Shown here in pieces: positions 8,117 through 16,935 of a stretch of DNA of 64,000 bases; within the stretch, counting starts at the first letter, position 1, and every line of letters begins with the position of its first letter. This DNA comes from an uncultured archaeon (GTDB lineage: Archaea; Asgardarchaeota; Lokiarchaeia; Sigyniarchaeales; SOKP01), in contig CAZALK010000013.1 of assembly GCA_964486045.1 (NCBI GenBank), forward strand, positions 78,841 to 142,840. The letters run 5' to 3'. The translations under genes and the position numbers were made by a program. The notes below the pieces were generated by a model, which was not told the origin of the DNA, ran no database searches, and saw only the letters and a program-made list of their open reading frames with translations.

Positions 8117-9922
8117 ATGGCAGAAGTTGAAGGGAAGATAATTAGAGCACCTATTACCTGCATATTGGGTCATATAGATCACGGTAAAACAACTATTCTT
8201 GATTATATTAGAGGAACCGTAGTCCAGCAAAGAGAAGCCGCTGGAATTACCCAACATATAGGTGCATCTTATTTTCCAACCGAAGATATTAAAATATTTT
8301 TAAGCAAATCTAAACAAGAATTCGCAGAAAAAGATATTAAACTCCCAGGAATATTAGTAATTGATACACCTGGACACGCAGCTTTTTTAAATCTTCGACG
8401 TCGTGGTGGAGCTGTAGCAGATATAGCAATATTAGTAATTGATGTAACTGCAGGGACTATGCCAATAACCTGGGAATCTGTAAGAATTTTAAAAGAGAGA
8501 AAAACACCTTTTATAATAGCAGCAAATAAAATAGACAGAATTTTTGGATGGAAGTCAAAAAAAGATGCAGATTTTTTAGATTCATACAATACTCAAGCAC
8601 CCCATGTTAAAGACTTCCTGGATGAAAAAATTCTTCAAATAATGGGAAATTTCTTAGAAGAGGGATATAAGGGGATAGAGAGATACGATAAAATAAAAGA
8701 TTTTACAAAACAAATCGCAATTGTGCCTACAAGTGGGAAAACTGGTGAGGGGATTTCTACTCTCTTGCTGGTTTTGATGGGATTAGTTCAGCAATTTTTA
8801 ACAAAAAATTTGAAGTTTTCTGAAGGACCAGCTAAAGGTGTGGTTTTGGAAGTTAAAAAGGAGAAAGGACAAGGAAAAACTATGGATGTATTGATCTACG
8901 ATGGTATTATTAATAAGGGCGACGAATTTATCGTAGGGGGATTAGAAAAACCAATAAAATCAAAAGTAAGAGCGTTGTTAATTCCAAAACCATTAGACGA
9001 GATAAGAGATCCTAGACAAAAATTTGATTCAGTTGATTTTGTAGCAGCAGCGGCAGGAATTAAAATTCTTTCACCAAATATCGATGATGTTGTAGCAGGA
9101 TCCCCTTTTAGGGGGATTGGAGATCCTTCTGAAGAATCTGTGATATATAAAGAAGTTGAATCTGAAGTAGAAAGCATTCGTATTAAAACTGACAAAGCTG
9201 GGGTTGTTTTAAAAGCAGATACTTTAGGATCTCTTGAAGCATTAGAAAATTATTTTTCTAAGAATGATATTAAAATCAGCATTGCCGATGTAGGACCAAT
9301 TAAAAAAGAAGATATAATCAATGCTAATATTGTAAAAGAATTTGACCCATACTCTGCGACCGTACTTGGATTTAATGTTCCGATACTTCCTGAAGCAAAT
9401 GAACAAGCACTTATTGATAACATCCGGATTTTTACTAATAATGTTATTTATCGATTATTAGAAGATTATATTGAATATGCTGATACAAGAAAAGCGGAAG
9501 ATACTGCTAAAGGACTAAGCGAATTAATACAACCTGCAAAACTAAAAATGATTCCAGATTTTATCTTTAGAAATTCAAATCCAGCTGTATTCGGTGTAAA
9601 AGTTGAATCTGGAACTTTGTATCCAAAGGTACCTCTGATCACTGGAGAGGGAAAAAGAATCAAAAGAATCCATCAAATTCAAGACAAAGGACAAACTGTA
9701 GAAAAAGCTTTGGTGGGAACGGAAGTTGCAATTTCTATTCGAGGTATCGAAATAGGAAGAGAAATTGGAAATGATGAAACTCTTTTTGTAAATGTCCCAG
9801 AATCCCATGTAAGGCAATTTATGGGAAAATTCAGTGACGAACTGACCACAAATCAAAAACAAGTTCTTAGAGAATTCGTCATTTTAATGCGAAAGACGAC
9901 GCATCCTTGGTGGGGTATGTGA
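8117..9922 (+). CDS. infB: Translation initiation factor aIF5B (archaeal IF2)
   Basis: IRAPI..LGHIDHGKTT, AGITQHIGA, DTPGH, NKID and KADTLGSLEAL; about 600 aa, the archaeal size. Confidence 0.97.
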   Translation: MAEVEGKIIRAPITCILGHIDHGKTTILDYIRGTVVQQREAAGITQHIGASYFPTEDIKIFLSKSKQEFAEKDIKLPGILVIDTPGHAAFLNLRRRGGAVADIAILVIDVTAGTMPITWESVRILKERKTPFIIAANKIDRIFGWKSKKDADFLDSYNTQAPHVKDFLDEKILQIMGNFLEEGYKGIERYDKIKDFTKQIAIVPTSGKTGEGISTLLLVLMGLVQQFLTKNLKFSEGPAKGVVLEVKKEKGQGKTMDVLIYDGIINKGDEFIVGGLEKPIKSKVRALLIPKPLDEIRDPRQKFDSVDFVAAAAGIKILSPNIDDVVAGSPFRGIGDPSEESVIYKEVESEVESIRIKTDKAGVVLKADTLGSLEALENYFSKNDIKISIADVGPIKKEDIINANIVKEFDPYSATVLGFNVPILPEANEQALIDNIRIFTNNVIYRLLEDYIEYADTRKAEDTAKGLSELIQPAKLKMIPDFIFRNSNPAVFGVKVESGTLYPKVPLITGEGKRIKRIHQIQDKGQTVEKALVGTEVAISIRGIEIGREIGNDETLFVNVPESHVRQFMGKFSDELTTNQKQVLREFVILMRKTTHPWWGM

Positions 9923-13087: not shown

Positions 13088-15370
13088 ATGGTTAAAGTAA
13101 AGAACCCAGATGAGATAGTAAAGCTCGTAACTTCCGGATCTTATGAGAGAAAGAGAATTTTCAGTATAACCGCGCATTTTTAATAAGGTTTCCTTATTAT
13201 AGCGTAAATTGATCACGGGAAAACAACTGCTACTGATTATCTTCTACGTAGAGCAGGGCTCATGCGGCCAGAAGATGCTGGTCAACTTCAAATGACTGAC
13301 AGCGACGAGGAAGAACAGGCACGTGGGATTACCATTTTTACAAGTGTAGTTTTACTTGCATTCAATGACTCTAGAAAACCAGATGACACTGAACCTTATG
13401 TTATTCAATTAAATGATACTCCAGGTCATATTAGTTTTACCGGGGAGGTATCACGAGCTCTAAGAGGAAGCGATGGTGCAATAATATTGGTCGATGCTCT
13501 TGAAGGAGTAATGACCCAGACAGAAACTAATATTCGTTTATCCGTTGGTGAAGAATTCTGTAAACCAGTTCTATTCATTAATAAAGTTGACCGACTTATT
13601 AGTGAGCTTAAGTTAAGTCCTCAAGATACTTTTGCTAAAATAGATAAAATTACACGCGAAATTAATGAACTTATAAGAAAAGTGAGACCTGAGGGTTCGG
13701 GTTGGACCATTGATTTTGCTAAAAATTCAGTTGCAGTTGGTTCAGCAAAACATGGATGGGGTTTTACATATGAGATTTTAGTTGAAAAAAAAATGAAACC
13801 TCAAGATGTTTTCGCAAAATATACTGAAGGTGACATTCAGTGGTTAAGAGATAATTTACCTTTAGATGAGCCTCTGTTAAGGATGATCGTAGACCATCTT
13901 CCAGATCCTATTAGTGCTGCTAAATATAGAATACCTCATATCTGGGGAGGAGACCTAAGTTCTGAACTTGGACAATCTCTCGTGAAGAGTGATCCAAATG
14001 GGCCTCTCTACGGAATGATAACTAAGATTTTCTTAGACCCAAAAAGGAATTATCAAGCTACTCTTATCGGTCGTGTTTTTTCGGGTACGTTCAACCAAAC
14101 AGATTCAATTTATCTAATTAATAGCGATTCAAGCAACCGTGTGAAGCGGCTTGGAGTTATGGAGATTACTGATCTCTTAGATATTCCCCGGATTCCGGCA
14201 GGAAATTTATTTGCATTATTTGGTTTTGTATGCCCGGCTGGTGAAACATTTATGTTGACAAGTGAGGTTCCTAAAGATAAAGAAGAGAGGAAAAAGCTTC
14301 ACCCCTTCGAGAAAATTAATTATGCGTGCGAGGCTGTGGTTTCGCGGAGTATTAAACCTAAGGACCATCATCTCATTGATAAATTAGATGATGTAGTCGG
14401 AAAATGGCTTAAAGCGAACCCTGAAGCTGAATATCGAAGAGATGAAGAATCTGGTGAATTTGTGCTCTCTGGAATAGACCCTCTCCAAATTGAAATCCTG
14501 ACAAAGAGAATCAACATCCAAGTACCAATTGACATTGGGGAACCAATTATTATTTATAGGGAAAAAATTACGAAAAAAAGTCCGGAATATCATACAAAAT
14601 CTGCGAACACTCACAATCGTATAGTGTTATACATTGAACCTTTAGACGAAACAACAGAAAAGCTAATCGAAACCGGTAAAATTAATGATTTACAAAATGA
14701 CAAGGATAGAGCTAAAATTCTTAGGGAAGACGCAGATTGGGATGCTAAGGAAGCAAGGCGAATTGTTGATGTATATCAAGGAAGTCTCCTTGTCAATGGT
14801 ACTTCGGGATTACAGAGATTTGATCGCGTGAAGTCCTATTTGAGTGCTGCTTTTAGAGATTGGCTTGGTAATTGTATAATAGCAAAAGAACCCGCTACAG
14901 GAGTAAAAGCTGTATTTACAGATTTAGTCATCCATGAAGACCCAAGACATACGCAATATGGCCAGATTGCGGGAATGTTTTTCTCAGCTTTATCACTTGC
15001 GATGTTGGAAGCAGATTCTCATCTCTTTGAGCCAGTCCAGAAAATTGATGTTAAAACACCTCAAGGAACAGAAGGAGGGGTAACAGCCATTATCTCTAAG
15101 CGTCGAGGGAGGATAACTAATGTTATTCCTGAAGGTGAATACGTTAGGATCAAAGGTCAGATTCCTGCTGCCGAGGTAATTGGCATTGCAGACGATATCC
15201 GAGGCTCAACGCAAGGGAGGGCTTTTTTTGGATACGAATTTAAAGGCTTCGAGAAGGTTCCTGCTTCTACTGAAGAAGATCTCATCATGGAAATCCGCAA
15301 ACGCAAAGGACTGCCCCTAGAAATGCCTAATAGAAGGAGTTGGGAGCGTTTTATTTATAAACGTTCTTGA
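13088..15370 (+). CDS. fusA: Elongation factor EF-2 family GTPase, two exons (13088-13177 + 13208-15370; 750 aa after removing the 30-nt insert)
   Basis: ATG 13088 reads MVKVKNPDEIVKLVTSGSYERKRIFSITAH. The same frame resumes at 13208 as IDHGKTTATDYLLRRAGLM and runs into ORF 13262-15370 (RGIT, DTPGH, NKVD, domain IV/V, STQGRA). Confidence 0.92.
13178..13207 (+). other. Candidate bulge-helix-bulge (BHB/BHL) mRNA intron, 30 nt
   Basis: TTTTAATAAGGTTTCCTTATTATAGCGTAA has 3 in-frame TAA codons. Central 4-bp helix GCGC(13172-75)/GCGT(13202-05), 3-nt bulges AT|T and AA|A, intronic stem TAATAAGG/CCTTATTA. Confidence 0.85.
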
Positions 15371-15780
15371 TGTTTCAAATTTATTGGAGTTTGGATAATT
15401 TGCTACAAGATGATTTTTCAGATATATTTTTACATCATATTCATGAAATTACTTGGAGTATGGAGGAAGAGGAACTTGGTGCAATTACGAGGGGATCTCA
15501 CTATGATTTATCCCATAGACGACGGATAGGTAGAATTGACTTATTCTCAGGGAGGAATAATTATAAACGCCACCAACGTTATTTTGAAGAGGTAAAAGCT
15601 TCACTAAATCCAGGTAGGCCTACAATACCCCCCGGTTGGACTCAAGATCAATTTGACACGTATTTAGATAGTCGTCAGTTTTATTATACCCATGGTGAGA
15701 GAAAGTGGTTTTTGGAATATTTCGGAGATTTCTACAGATTGTTTCAAAATAAAAAATTTTGGAATACTAAAAAATTATAA
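15370..15780 (+). CDS. Hypothetical protein, translationally coupled to EF-2
   Basis: 136-aa ORF whose ATG overlaps the EF-2 stop (TGATG); no recognised family. Confidence 0.65.
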   Translation: MFQIYWSLDNLLQDDFSDIFLHHIHEITWSMEEEELGAITRGSHYDLSHRRRIGRIDLFSGRNNYKRHQRYFEEVKASLNPGRPTIPPGWTQDQFDTYLDSRQFYYTHGERKWFLEYFGDFYRLFQNKKFWNTKKL

Positions 15781-15799: not shown

Positions 15800-16684
15800 C
15801 TAAAATTGGTTTAATTGGGTTTGATTTTTATACCCACTAGAATAAATTTCTTTAATTTTATTTAGGACATCTACATCAAACATTTTTGGTTTATTTATTC
15901 TTAAGTTAATTTCTTTTAAGAATTGGTCTTTAATATGCTGCTCTCCCTTATGAACTTTTTTTATAAAAGGTATAACAAAATTAATTAAGATTGATTTATT
16001 TTTAAATAAAAAGTTTAGTTCATGTAGATTGTCAATAAAGCTAAAGAATCCCTCTACAGTTTCTTTACCAACTTTTTTGATTTTAATCCTATAAATTTTA
16101 GCGTAAAGTAACAATTCAATTTTTTTCAATTCACTTAACATATTAGATGCAATATATTTTTTTATACTATCAAAAGTCTGAGAATTGAGATTTGAGTTTT
16201 CTATTACTATCTTTAACTCTTCTGCATTTAAGATATCCAAGTAACCCTCATTTAACAAGAATTCCATAGTTTGAAAATGATTACTAGCAAATCTTTTGGC
16301 TATTTCTTCTTTAAGAATTCTTTTTGCTAAAGAATCTCCGATCCTCGTTAATTCATTTAATAGGGGAAAGGCTATAGTTCTATGTAATAATCGAGAGTTA
16401 TAGTTATTTTCATTCCATACTTGTAGATTTGAGCAATGCCCCCAAAATTCAATTTCTGGCGGAACATATCCCGTTTCTTCAATTCTTTGATTTTCCATTC
16501 TTTCTGATACTTCATCAACAGAATTAATTTCATTTACGCTTTTTGCTTCAATAATAGGGAAATTTAGCAATAAATATTTGCATTGTAAGAACTCCTTATT
16601 TCTAATATAGAGATTTGTTTTATTTTCTTCTAACTTGAGGGTTATATAATTATTAACCTTGAATTCTTTCGTTCTCTTCAACAA
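15800..16684 (-). CDS. Lokiarchaeal expanded-family protein (N-terminal domain of the type usually found before LRRs)
   Basis: EFKVNNYITLKLE..FLQCKYLLLN..EFWGHCSNLQVW..NYNSRLLH pattern, recognised from memory; no LRRs in this copy. Confidence 0.65.
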   Translation of the reverse strand: MLKRTKEFKVNNYITLKLEENKTNLYIRNKEFLQCKYLLLNFPIIEAKSVNEINSVDEVSERMENQRIEETGYVPPEIEFWGHCSNLQVWNENNYNSRLLHRTIAFPLLNELTRIGDSLAKRILKEEIAKRFASNHFQTMEFLLNEGYLDILNAEELKIVIENSNLNSQTFDSIKKYIASNMLSELKKIELLLYAKIYRIKIKKVGKETVEGFFSFIDNLHELNFLFKNKSILINFVIPFIKKVHKGEQHIKDQFLKEINLRINKPKMFDVDVLNKIKEIYSSGYKNQTQLNQF

Positions 16685-16855: not shown

Positions 16856-16935
16856 GTTACCGCAATCATAGCAAAGCGTCGCTGGAAATGCCTAATAGAA
16901 GGAGTTGGGAGCGTTTTATTTATAAAAGATCATAA
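16856..16935 (+). pseudogene. Remnant second copy of the EF-2 3' end, internally deleted
   Basis: 16885-16926 is identical (42 nt) to 15320-15361 and ends KRS-stop with different codons. 16856-16882 encodes VTAIIAKRR versus EF-2 VTAIISKRR at 15080-15106. Confidence 0.88.

What the first reader, a model, noticed from the sequence alone, without database searches (positions are those of the whole stretch)
13088..13261. Candidate tRNA-type (bulge-helix-bulge) intron inside the P-loop of the EF-2 mRNA
Seen: ORF 13262-15370 lacks the G1 motif, but its frame extends back to ATG 13088 as ...FSITAH [30 nt with three TAA] IDHGKTT. Removing 13178-13207 restores AHIDHGKTT, comparable to the intact GHIDHGKTT of aIF5B at 8168-8194, and gives a 750-aa EF-2. 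The RNA folds as: 4-bp helix GCGC(13172-75):GCGU(13202-05); 3-nt bulge AU|U (13176-78); intron stem 13179-88:13192-201 (9/10 pairs, UUU loop); 3-nt bulge AA|A (13206-08). Established: archaeal splicing endonuclease EndA cuts after the 2nd nt of each BHB bulge and RtcB ligates; the well-known archaeal mRNA example is crenarchaeal cbf5. Here both predicted cuts coincide with the junctions that protein homology demands independently. The exon-exon outer helix is imperfect (relaxed BHL/HBh' type). Inference: synthesis of this EF-2 depends on the tRNA splicing machinery. That could couple elongation-factor supply to tRNA processing, conceptually like non-spliceosomal HAC1/XBP1 splicing in eukaryotes. 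I do not know of such an intron being described in Asgard EF-2, but I cannot search the literature here.
Basis: partly seen in the sequence, partly recalled or inferred. Interest (0 to 1): 0.96.

Follow-up and report, generated by a model that had tools for sequence, protein, structure and literature searches.

The report
tRNA-type mini-intron splits EF-2 gene
A 30-base intron of the kind normally cut out of archaeal tRNAs interrupts the GTP-binding loop of the only true elongation factor 2 gene of an Asgard (Promethearchaeota) archaeon, and it is one of many such mini-introns in this lineage's protein-coding genes, something previously known essentially for one crenarchaeal gene (cbf5).

Summary
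Window 13088-15370 (+) encodes aEF-2, interrupted at 13178-13207 by 30 nt carrying three TAA. Removing them restores AHIDHGKTT and a 750-codon gene.

The RNA fits a relaxed bulge-helix-bulge (HBh') motif. Both predicted cuts fall exactly where protein homology requires; only about 6 in 100,000 shuffles do this.

The insert is real DNA: an independent assembly from a second sample also has it.

This is the genome's only bona fide aEF-2. dN/dS is 0.03-0.05. The genome encodes an (alpha-beta)-type EndA with the broad-specificity loop, and RtcB.

Across 161 genomes of the class, 26 carry such inserts in aEF-2. All 26 belong to this one family. They occupy five positions within the first 65 codons and share one architecture (1+9+5+9+4+2 nt). 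Presence is patchy even between sister species.

Same-type inserts also interrupt RpoA', a thiolase, a BcrAD/BadFG ATPase, an SDR and a flavoprotein in this genome. Other first-stage notes of this scan reported more on other pieces of the same genome.

No RNA data were available, so splicing is inferred, not shown. The HAC1-like regulatory idea is not supported. I found no paper describing mRNA BHB introns in Asgard archaea.

The parts
13088..13177 (+). Exon 1 of aEF-2 (30 codons, MVKVK...FSITAH); ends with the first two bulge nucleotides A13176 U13177
   Evidence: orthologues begin with the same 30 codons
13172..13175 (+). 5' strand of the central 4-bp helix H (GCGC, from codons GCG CAT)
   Evidence: Invariant in 6/6 intron-A alleles. 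The codon pair GCG CAT occurs in 6/6 intron-A alleles but only 5/88 intron-less alleles
13176..13178 (+). 5' three-nucleotide bulge A U|U; predicted EndA cut between 13177 and 13178
   Evidence: sequence reading; cleavage rule from PMC2738675
13178..13207 (+). 30-nt intron (1 bulge nt + 9-10 bp hairpin with 3-5 nt loop + 4 nt helix strand + 2 bulge nt); three in-frame TAA
   Evidence: Present unchanged in Logan contigs of two samples, and in a relative from another study
13179..13201 (+). Intron hairpin h' (13179-88 pairs with 13192-201, one U/U mismatch at 13180/13200, loop 13189-91)
   Evidence: A13183:U13197 is G:C in metagenome allele L147, a compensatory change
13202..13205 (+). 3' strand of central helix H (GCGU)
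   Evidence: invariant
13206..13208 (+). 3' bulge A A|A; predicted cut between 13207 and 13208. No adjoining outer helix, so the motif is the relaxed HBh' form
   Evidence: C13171/U13209, C13170/U13210 do not pair
13208..15370 (+). Exon 2 of aEF-2 (IDHGKTT... to stop). G2-G5 motifs and domains II-V are intact. The diphthamide-loop variant HEDPRH-T-Q is typical of Lokiarchaeial bona fide aEF-2
   Evidence: PMC6143161

Best explanation
Window 13178-13207 is a genuine archaeal bulge-helix-bulge intron of the relaxed HBh' form, lying inside the coding sequence of the organism's only bona fide elongation factor 2.

Proposed mechanism (inferred, not shown):
- The gene is transcribed with the 30 nt included.
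- In the pre-mRNA, the last exon-1 bases GCGC pair with GCGU near the intron's 3' end, and the intron folds into a 9-10 bp hairpin.
- This presents two 3-nt bulges, four base pairs apart, to the heterotetrameric (alpha-beta)2 splicing endonuclease EndA.
- EndA cuts after the second nucleotide of each bulge.
- RtcB joins the exons, and probably circularises the intron.
- The spliced mRNA encodes a 750-aa aEF-2 with an intact P-loop AHIDHGKTT.
- Unspliced mRNA can yield only a 31-aa peptide or a G1-less fragment.

The intron belongs to a stereotyped class of about 30-nt mini-introns. These have colonised several positions of this gene and many other protein-coding genes in one Promethearchaeota (Lokiarchaeial) family. 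They are gained and lost precisely between closely related species.
For: Shown here:
(1) Exact geometry and register. The cleavage rule is taken from PMC2738675.
(2) The insert is real DNA. A 22-kb Logan contig from a second sample has it with no change. Contigs of an about 87%-identical relative from another study keep it, with a single loop change amid many synonymous exon changes.
(3) After removal of the inserts, all orthologues are exactly 750 codons. dN/dS is 0.025-0.049 for intron-bearing versus intron-less pairs, the same as between intron-less pairs.
(4) The genome has only two EF-2 family genes. The window copy carries HxDxxH-T-Q, the Lokiarchaeial bona fide aEF-2 signature. The C10 copy lacks the domain IV loop and is therefore aEF-2p.
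(5) Seventeen of 53 species of the genus, and 26 of about 128 genomes of the family, carry about 30-nt stop-containing inserts in aEF-2. None of 24 genomes in other families of the class do.
(6) There are five insertion positions: AH|ID, ID|HG, HG|KT, TD|SD and SD|DE. All have the same 1+9+5+9+4+2 architecture and a 4/4 or 3/4 central helix formed with whatever exon sequence precedes the site.
(7) Pairing is kept in 96-97% of cells, against 23-50% when the partner is slid. G:C<->A:U compensatory changes occur. The loops vary.
(8) Intron B identity among bearers is 0.86, while third-codon identity of distal exon sequence is 0.52.
(9) Distribution on the gene tree is patchy. G000 (site A only) is sister to G013 (site B only), and G016 (B) is sister to intron-less G014.
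(10) Machinery: an EndA catalytic subunit most like the crenarchaeal heterotetramer alpha subunits, with K/R of the specificity loop aligned; a second EndA paralogue without the catalytic His; and RtcB. The literature states that Asgard EndA is (alpha-beta)2 with the broad-specificity L1 loop (PMC5829648).
(11) Single Pfam domain alignments run straight across same-type inserts in RpoA', a thiolase, BcrAD_BadFG, an SDR and a Pyr_redox protein of the same genome.
Against: There is no direct RNA evidence. No RNA run holds this locus, so excision, ligation and the exact junction are inferred.

The motif is not the strict hBHBh' form: no outer exon-exon helix closes the 3' bulge.

Covariation is modest, with one compensatory pair per intron family. 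It is not significant against column shuffles for intron A (116 of 500 shuffles as high), because most columns are invariant.

The TIGR00490 score of the read-through protein (597) is below the curated cut-off (738). This fits the known divergence of Lokiarchaeial aEF-2 but is worth noting.

My homology-free genome-wide scans did not show a statistical excess of the geometry over controls. The number of such introns per genome is therefore tens, not hundreds.
Confidence: 0.86

Rival explanations
1. Programmed translational bypassing: the insert stays in the mRNA and ribosomes hop over it, as in phage T4 gene 60 or the 'byp' elements of Magnusiomyces mitochondria.
For: Short (27-55 nt) stop-containing hairpin inserts in essential coding genes are also the hallmark of byp elements (my own knowledge). 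A stop codon lies near the 5' junction (TAA at 13181, one codon after it) and there is a hairpin.
Against: Bypassing needs matching take-off and landing codons. Here the take-off codon would be CAU and the last triplet of the gap is UAA. For intron B the pair is GAU versus AAA. So there is no match. One insert is 31 nt long (G149), which a hop could tolerate. However, a helix between exon 1 and the 3' end of the insert, in exact EndA register at five different sites, is predicted by splicing and not by hopping.
Confidence: 0.04
2. The gene is a pseudogene or a decaying copy, and the insert is a disabling insertion.
For: Three in-frame stops lie inside the P-loop codons. The TIGR00490 score is below the cut-off.
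Against: It is the only bona fide aEF-2 in a 99%-complete genome. There is no other lesion in 750 codons. dN/dS is 0.03-0.05 at saturated dS. The same or similar inserts are kept in 26 species, always with an otherwise intact gene. RpoA' is interrupted in the same way.
Confidence: 0.02
3. Assembly or sequencing artefact.
For: The genome is a metagenome-assembled genome.
Against: An independent Logan assembly of a second sample has the identical insert. A diverged relative from another study, two further metagenome contigs and three other species genomes carry homologous inserts at the same base.
Confidence: 0.01
4. The insert is spliced as proposed, but splicing is a regulated, EF-2-specific switch. 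This is the reader's HAC1/XBP1 analogy: EF-2 output is tuned by EndA/RtcB activity or by tRNA-precursor load.
For: Any EndA/RtcB-dependent mRNA is in principle sensitive to competition with the many intron-bearing pre-tRNAs of these archaea (preprint 10.64898/2026.10.13.758758). All aEF-2 inserts lie in the first 65 codons and carry stops, so unspliced mRNA is cheaply aborted.
Against: Most sister species lack any EF-2 intron, and the position differs between sister species. The same inserts sit in unrelated genes. The intron keeps nothing beyond what the cleavage motif requires, and its loops vary freely.
Confidence: 0.07

Closest known systems
BHB intron of the cbf5 (pseudouridine synthase) pre-mRNA in Crenarchaeota (Watanabe 2002; Yoshinari 2006; Yokobori 2009, PMC2738675)
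   Same: A short (16-44 nt) intron inside a protein-coding gene. It has a relaxed BHB motif, predicted cuts between the 2nd and 3rd bulge residues, a hetero-oligomeric EndA with relaxed specificity, and gain and loss among related species.
   Different: Different phylum (Promethearchaeota/Asgard) and a different host gene, the essential translocase, hit in its P-loop. There are five positions in one gene, a uniform 30-nt 1+9+5+9+4+2 architecture, and many other genes of the same genome are hit. cbf5 splicing is shown by cDNA; here it is not.
Non-canonical tRNA introns of Thermoproteales and of Asgard archaea (Fujishima 2010; preprint 10.64898/2026.10.13.758758)
   Same: Same predicted enzyme and motif. 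Many recent lineage-specific gains, patchy distribution, and an unknown route of arrival.
   Different: The hosts here are mRNAs, so the reading frame and translation are at stake. The preprint does not mention mRNA at all.
BHB-flanked intron in the 5' UTR of HVO_1309 mRNA in Haloferax volcanii (PMC7714728)
   Same: An EndA substrate in an mRNA, confirmed in vitro.
   Different: It lies in the UTR, not in the coding sequence, and is a single case in a euryarchaeon with a strict alpha'2 EndA.
HAC1/XBP1 unconventional mRNA splicing in eukaryotes
   Same: Non-spliceosomal endonuclease cuts followed by RtcB-type ligation of an mRNA (in metazoa).
   Different: The endonuclease is Ire1, which recognises two 7-nt stem-loops, not a BHB. 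That splicing is a regulated stress switch. Neither regulation nor Ire1-type motifs are seen here.
Translational bypass elements (T4 gene 60; mitochondrial byps)
   Same: Short stop-containing hairpin inserts in coding sequence.
   Different: They need matching take-off and landing codons, which are absent here. They are not removed from the RNA.

Membership tests
Archaeal BHB intron (EndA/RtcB-spliced) | Central 4-bp helix with a 3-nt bulge following it on each strand | tested here: met
   GCGC 13172-75 pairs with GCGU 13202-05. The bulges are AUU 13176-78 and AAA 13206-08. The same is seen at four other sites in relatives.
Archaeal BHB intron (EndA/RtcB-spliced) | Strict hBHBh' form: an outer exon-exon helix closing the 3' bulge | tested here: not met
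   C13171/U13209 and the next positions do not pair. The motif is the relaxed HBh' form, which (alpha-beta)2 and epsilon2 EndAs are reported to cleave (PMC5829648).
Archaeal BHB intron (EndA/RtcB-spliced) | Cuts between the 2nd and 3rd bulge residues give the functional junction | tested here: met
   The predicted cuts at 13177/78 and 13207/08 equal the only junction that restores AHIDHGKTT. Only register 0 of -8..+8 passes. The rule is from PMC2738675.
Archaeal BHB intron (EndA/RtcB-spliced) | Helices kept among homologous introns, with compensatory change | tested here: met
   96-97% of cells are paired, against 23-50% when slid. G:C<->A:U changes occur at one pair in each family. Covariation is modest.
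Archaeal BHB intron (EndA/RtcB-spliced) | Host encodes a splicing endonuclease able to cut relaxed motifs, and an RtcB ligase | tested here: met
   There are two PF01974 genes. One is alpha-like with Y/H/K and the loop K/R aligned to A. pernix K44/R46. The other lacks the catalytic His. RtcB scores 557 bits.
Archaeal BHB intron (EndA/RtcB-spliced) | Excision and exon ligation observed in RNA | not testable with these tools
   No RNA run is listed for this locus.
Bona fide archaeal EF-2 (aEF-2) | Five-domain EF-2 architecture with G1-G5 and the domain IV diphthamide loop | tested here: met
   Pfam finds GTP_EFTU, EF-G_D2, EFG_III, EFG_IV and EFG_C. After splicing the protein reads AHIDHGKTT, DTPGH and NKVD. 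HEDPRH-T-Q equals the Lokiarchaeial aEF-2 variant. TIGR00490 scores 597 bits, below the cut-off of 738.
Translational bypass element | Matching take-off and landing codons at the ends of the coding gap | tested here: not met
   CAU versus UAA for site A; GAU versus AAA for site B.
HAC1/XBP1-type regulated splicing | Ire1 endonuclease and twin 7-nt-loop stem-loops at the splice sites | not tested
   The geometry seen is BHB, not twin stem-loops. Ire1 was not searched for.

The most novel reading that the evidence does not exclude
One family of Promethearchaeota (Asgard archaea, the closest prokaryotic relatives of eukaryotes) has been invaded by a mobile class of stereotyped 30-nt endonuclease-spliced mini-introns. 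These insert into, and are precisely lost from, conserved motifs of essential protein-coding genes (aEF-2 P-loop, RpoA' clamp, and others). They spread between species by a homing-like or recombinational route that co-converts flanking exon sequence. On this reading, protein-coding genes in pieces, removed by a protein enzyme rather than a spliceosome or ribozyme, are a routine feature of gene expression in this lineage.
Probability: 0.45. Interest if true: 0.95.

Novelty: new variant of a known kind. Interest (0 to 1): 0.86.

Why it matters
Endonuclease-spliced introns in archaeal mRNAs have been treated as a curiosity: cbf5 in Crenarchaeota and one haloarchaeal 5' UTR, as summarised in 2020 (PMC7714728).

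Here the only functional translocase gene of an Asgard archaeon, and its RNA polymerase A' gene, cannot be expressed without the tRNA splicing enzymes. Sister species differ in which codon is interrupted.

If confirmed in RNA, several things follow:
- Routine, multi-gene mRNA splicing by EndA/RtcB would exist in the prokaryotic lineage closest to eukaryotes.
- Closely related genomes differing by single introns would give a tractable system for studying how introns arrive and are lost.
- There is a practical consequence for annotation. Gene callers split or truncate these genes; here they would give a 702-aa G1-less 'EF-2'. That distorts marker-gene phylogenies, completeness estimates and pseudogene counts for Asgard MAGs.
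- It raises the question of how ribosomes are kept from wasting effort on unspliced transcripts. The introns lie near the 5' end and carry stop codons.

Tried and rejected
1. RNA evidence. The look-up of sequencing runs listed no RNA holder, so expression and splicing could not be examined.

2. A search of metagenome contigs for the G000-specific spliced junction (28 nt) found nothing. This says nothing either way.

3. Homology-free genome-wide counts gave no clear excess over controls. I tried four scans: ORF-joining plus loose BHB geometry; in-frame stop clusters (112 versus 76-93 in controls); a codon-usage filter; and a bulge-size control for the 9-bp-stem architecture. AT-rich hairpins and spurious ORFs swamp the signal. 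I therefore relied on case-by-case Pfam continuity and give no genome-wide number.

4. Of ten scan candidates sent to Pfam, five have a domain alignment crossing the insert. The other five are left undecided: Rab-like GTPase, AIRS-like, a glycosyl transferase family 3 (Glycos_transf_3) gene, an acyltransferase and an LOR/zinc-ribbon gene. In these the insert lies at or outside a domain edge.

5. A possible long-range exon-exon helix for intron B (GCUCC ... GGAGC) was considered. Two bearers break it without compensation, so I do not claim it.

6. ARAGORN finds only 31 tRNAs, 20 of them 'with intron', some spurious. It was used only as context.

7. A 177-nt 'insert' in G061 is a run of N. The about 300-nt 'inserts' at the 3' end are flanks. 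Both were discarded.

8. Marck & Grosjean 2003 (PMC1370505) is not held. The cleavage rule was taken from PMC2738675 instead.
Full report
**The observation**

Window 13088-15370 (+) is one reading frame broken only at 13178-13207.
- Upstream of the break it reads MVKVKNPDEIVKLVTSGSYERKRIFSITAH.
- The next 30 nt carry TAA at 13181, 13184 and 13205.
- Downstream it continues IDHGKTTATDYL... to the stop at 15370.
- Deleting exactly 13178-13207 gives AHIDHGKTT and a 750-codon gene. A shift of one base either way gives a different residue at the junction.
- Pfam finds the five EF-2/EF-G domains, and NCBIfam's best model is aEF-2.
- The aIF5B comparison is correct: GHIDHGKTT at 8168-8194.

**The fold**

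RNAfold of 13166-13214 returns GCGC 13172-75 paired with GCGU 13202-05, together with the intron hairpin (z = -2.5).
- With U13179:A13201 added, the 5' side has the 3-nt bulge AUU, and the helix strand GCGU is followed by AAA.
- The published rule for archaeal BHB substrates, including the cbf5 pre-mRNA, places the cuts between the second and third bulge residues (PMC2738675).
- That rule predicts cuts at 13177/78 and 13207/08, which is the junction protein homology requires.
- In 400,000 shuffles of the 60-nt region, 26 met the geometry in that register. In the real sequence no other register within +-8 passes.
- There is no adjoining outer helix, so this is the relaxed HBh' form.

**Is it real DNA?**

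- Logan contigs of the probable source run cover the site with no difference.
- A 22-kb contig from a second sample of the same study also covers it, with two substitutions elsewhere and none in the insert.
- Two short contigs from a different study belong to an about 87%-identical relative. They keep the insert with a single change in the hairpin loop (13189 T>C), while the flanking exon shows many synonymous changes.
- Two further metagenome contigs carry homologous inserts at the same base.
- An artefact is excluded.

**Is the gene alive, and does it matter?**

- The genome (99% complete) has two EF-2 family genes.
- Narrowe et al. (PMC6143161) showed that dph-lacking Asgard archaea have one bona fide aEF-2. 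In it the diphthamide-loop Arg is replaced by Thr, and in Lokiarchaeota the next Gly by Ser or Gln. They also have a paralogue, aEF-2p, without the domain IV loops.
- The window protein reads HEDPRH-T-Q.
- The C10 copy has no such loop.
- The interrupted gene is therefore the only predicted translocase.
- After in-silico splicing, ten orthologues are all exactly 750 codons.
- dN/dS between intron-bearing and intron-less genes is 0.025-0.049 at saturated dS, the same as between intron-less genes.
- A pseudogene is excluded.

**Relatives**

The relatives are MAGs labelled Promethearchaeota/Promethearchaeia (for example Loki_b31, Loki_b32, ABR01-06).

| Set searched | Genomes with a match | With about 30-nt stop-containing insert in aEF-2 |
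|---|---|---|
| Own genus (first 140 codons) | 53 | 17 |
| Own family | about 128 | 26 |
| Other families of the class | 24 | 0 |

The class survey covered 161 genomes in total.

Reading the sequences shows five positions:

| Site | Junction | Carriers |
|---|---|---|
| A | AH\|IDHGKTT | G000, G018, G041, G042 and two metagenome contigs |
| A2 | AHID\|HGKTT | G101 (30 nt), G149 (31 nt) |
| A3 | HG\|KTT | G094 |
| B | SD\|DEEQ | 14 species of the genus, plus G103, G117, G120, G149, G153 |
| C | TD\|SDDEEQ | G100, G105 |

- G018, G149 and one metagenome contig carry two introns.
- No insert was found anywhere else in the 2,250-nt gene in 80 loci.
- Every insert has the same plan: 1 bulge nt, a 9-bp stem, a loop of about 5 nt, the 4-nt helix strand and 2 bulge nt.
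- In every case the 4-nt strand is complementary to the four exon bases that end two bases before the junction: GCGC, AUUG, AUGG, UCAG and ACAG (AUAG in G149, 3 of 4 pairs).
- The site C intron is clearly related to the site B intron. Its helix strand reads CUGU instead of CUGA, matching ACAG instead of UCAG six bases upstream.

This is what an EndA substrate model predicts. A DNA-insertion, bypass or decay model does not predict it.

**Structure conservation**

- For intron B (12 distinct sequences), 97.4% of cells pair, against 25-47% with the partner slid. One pair switches G:C<->A:U in three sequences, and two pairs toggle U:A/U:G.
- For intron A (6 sequences), 96.2% pair. One G:C<->A:U switch is seen, including between G000 and its close relative L147. 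One pair runs G:C/G:U/A:U.
- The loops vary freely.
- Covariation is limited because most columns are invariant. I rate it as consistent rather than decisive.
- The exon codons forming the helix and bulge of site A are GCG CAT in 6 of 6 intron-A alleles and in 5 of 88 intron-less alleles. These alleles are kin, so this is not an independent count.

**Evolution**

- On a maximum-likelihood tree of the spliced gene, the introns are scattered. G000 (A) is sister to G013 (B). G016 (B) is sister to intron-less G014. G001 (B) is sister to intron-less G003. G023 (B) is sister to two intron-less species.
- Among B-bearers the intron is 86% identical on average, while distal third-codon positions are 52% identical (saturated).
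- Third positions within about 36 nt of the site are 64% identical among bearers, but 46% between bearers and non-bearers.
- G001 and G043 share a 30/30 identical intron with 42% distal third-position identity.
- Two readings fit. Either the intron and nearby exon are under strong structural constraint, or the intron moves between species with co-conversion of flanking exon. I cannot decide between them. Both imply that the cell treats the sequence as an intron.

**Machinery**

- There are two PF01974 genes.
- One is most similar to the catalytic alpha subunits of the crenarchaeal heterotetramers (A. pernix 3P1Z_B, E = 1.4e-33). It keeps Tyr/His/Lys, and it keeps the Lys and Arg of the specificity loop, which align to A. 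pernix K44 and R46 (role of these residues from PMC12397907).
- The other has Ser in place of the catalytic His, as expected of a structural beta subunit.
- RtcB is present.
- This agrees with the published statement that Asgard archaea have (alpha-beta)2 EndA with the broad-specificity L1 loop (PMC5829648).

**Not only EF-2**

- After my own first analysis, the scan's notebook listed first-reader notes of similar 28-32 nt inserts in other pieces of this genome.
- I tested the idea independently. A scan for in-frame stop-containing inserts with this geometry returned, among much noise, cases where a single Pfam domain alignment runs across the insert:
  - RNA polymerase A' (GHFGH|IELARP)
  - a thiolase (NYCASGM|DAFRNAC)
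  - a BcrAD/BadFG ATPase
  - a short-chain dehydrogenase
  - a Pyr_redox flavoprotein
- Statistical, homology-free counts showed no clear excess over controls. I therefore claim only 'at least six genes here, probably tens'.

**What this does to the interpretation**

- That EF-2 synthesis depends on EndA and RtcB follows directly, if the intron is spliced.
- A dedicated HAC1-like regulatory coupling is not supported. Most sister species have no EF-2 intron, the position differs between sisters, and unrelated genes carry the same inserts.
- Translational bypassing was considered and rejected because take-off and landing codons do not match.

**Novelty**

- Full-text searches found no paper joining BHB introns, mRNA and Asgard/Lokiarchaeial names.
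- A 2020 paper states that cbf5 is the only BHB intron reported in an archaeal mRNA besides its own 5'-UTR case (PMC7714728).
- A preprint of October 2026 describes heavily interrupted Asgard tRNA genes with repeated gains. It never mentions mRNA.
- The library is incomplete, so prior description elsewhere cannot be excluded.
- The mechanism is of a known kind. The host lineage, the essential targets, the uniform 30-nt architecture, the multiplicity of sites and the between-species turnover make it a new variant.

**Limits**

There is no RNA, no enzymology and no proteomics. All evidence for excision is comparative.

Noticed in passing
window 15317-15361 and 16882-16926: A 45-nt near-perfect direct repeat of the last 15 codons and stop region of aEF-2 brackets a 1,565-nt segment holding two ORFs without Pfam hits (15367-15780 +, 15800-16684 -). 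Both copies encode ...LEMPNRRSWERFIYKRS*. This looks like an element integrated into the 3' end of the EF-2 gene that carries a replacement gene end.
   Followed up: partly
G000:C13:44101-44130 (34.7 kb before the window start; locus L047): A 30-nt insert of the same architecture (GGAC at|t ... GUCU aa|a) splits GHFGH|IELARP of RNA polymerase subunit A'. Pfam Rpb1 domain 1 aligns across it in one stretch.
   Followed up: yes
G000 C3:186175, C7:54809, C1:224960, C7:192059 (loci L048, L049, L054, L053): Same-type 27-30 nt stop-containing inserts lie inside the Thiolase_N, BcrAD_BadFG, adh_short and Pyr_redox_2 domain alignments. Five further candidates are undecided: Rab-like GTPase at C17:96924, AIRS-like at C5:195271, and C7:186752, C6:11641, C18:43581.
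   Followed up: partly
G007 (C100 and C192), G019 C102, G021 C62 (loci L028, L027, L024): In three MAGs the aEF-2 contig ends or begins at residues 63-74 or 35, right next to intron sites B and A. Strain-level intron presence/absence may be breaking these assemblies.
   Followed up: no
whole genome G000: ARAGORN finds only 31 tRNA genes in a 99%-complete 5.2-Mb genome, 20 of them called with introns. Many tRNA genes are probably too interrupted to be detected, as the Oct 2026 preprint reports for Asgard archaea.
   Followed up: no
G000:C10:60386-62506 (locus L002): The second EF-2 family gene (34% identical) has an intact uninterrupted P-loop GHIDHGKTT but lacks the domain IV diphthamide loop. 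It is the aEF-2p paralogue of Narrowe et al..
   Followed up: partly
relatives, first 195 nt of aEF-2: All five aEF-2 intron positions lie within the first 65 codons, three of them inside the nine P-loop codons. None lies in the remaining 685 codons of 80 loci. Possible reasons are homing into conserved sequence, 3'-biased loss, or cheap abortion of unspliced translation. None of these was tested.
   Followed up: no
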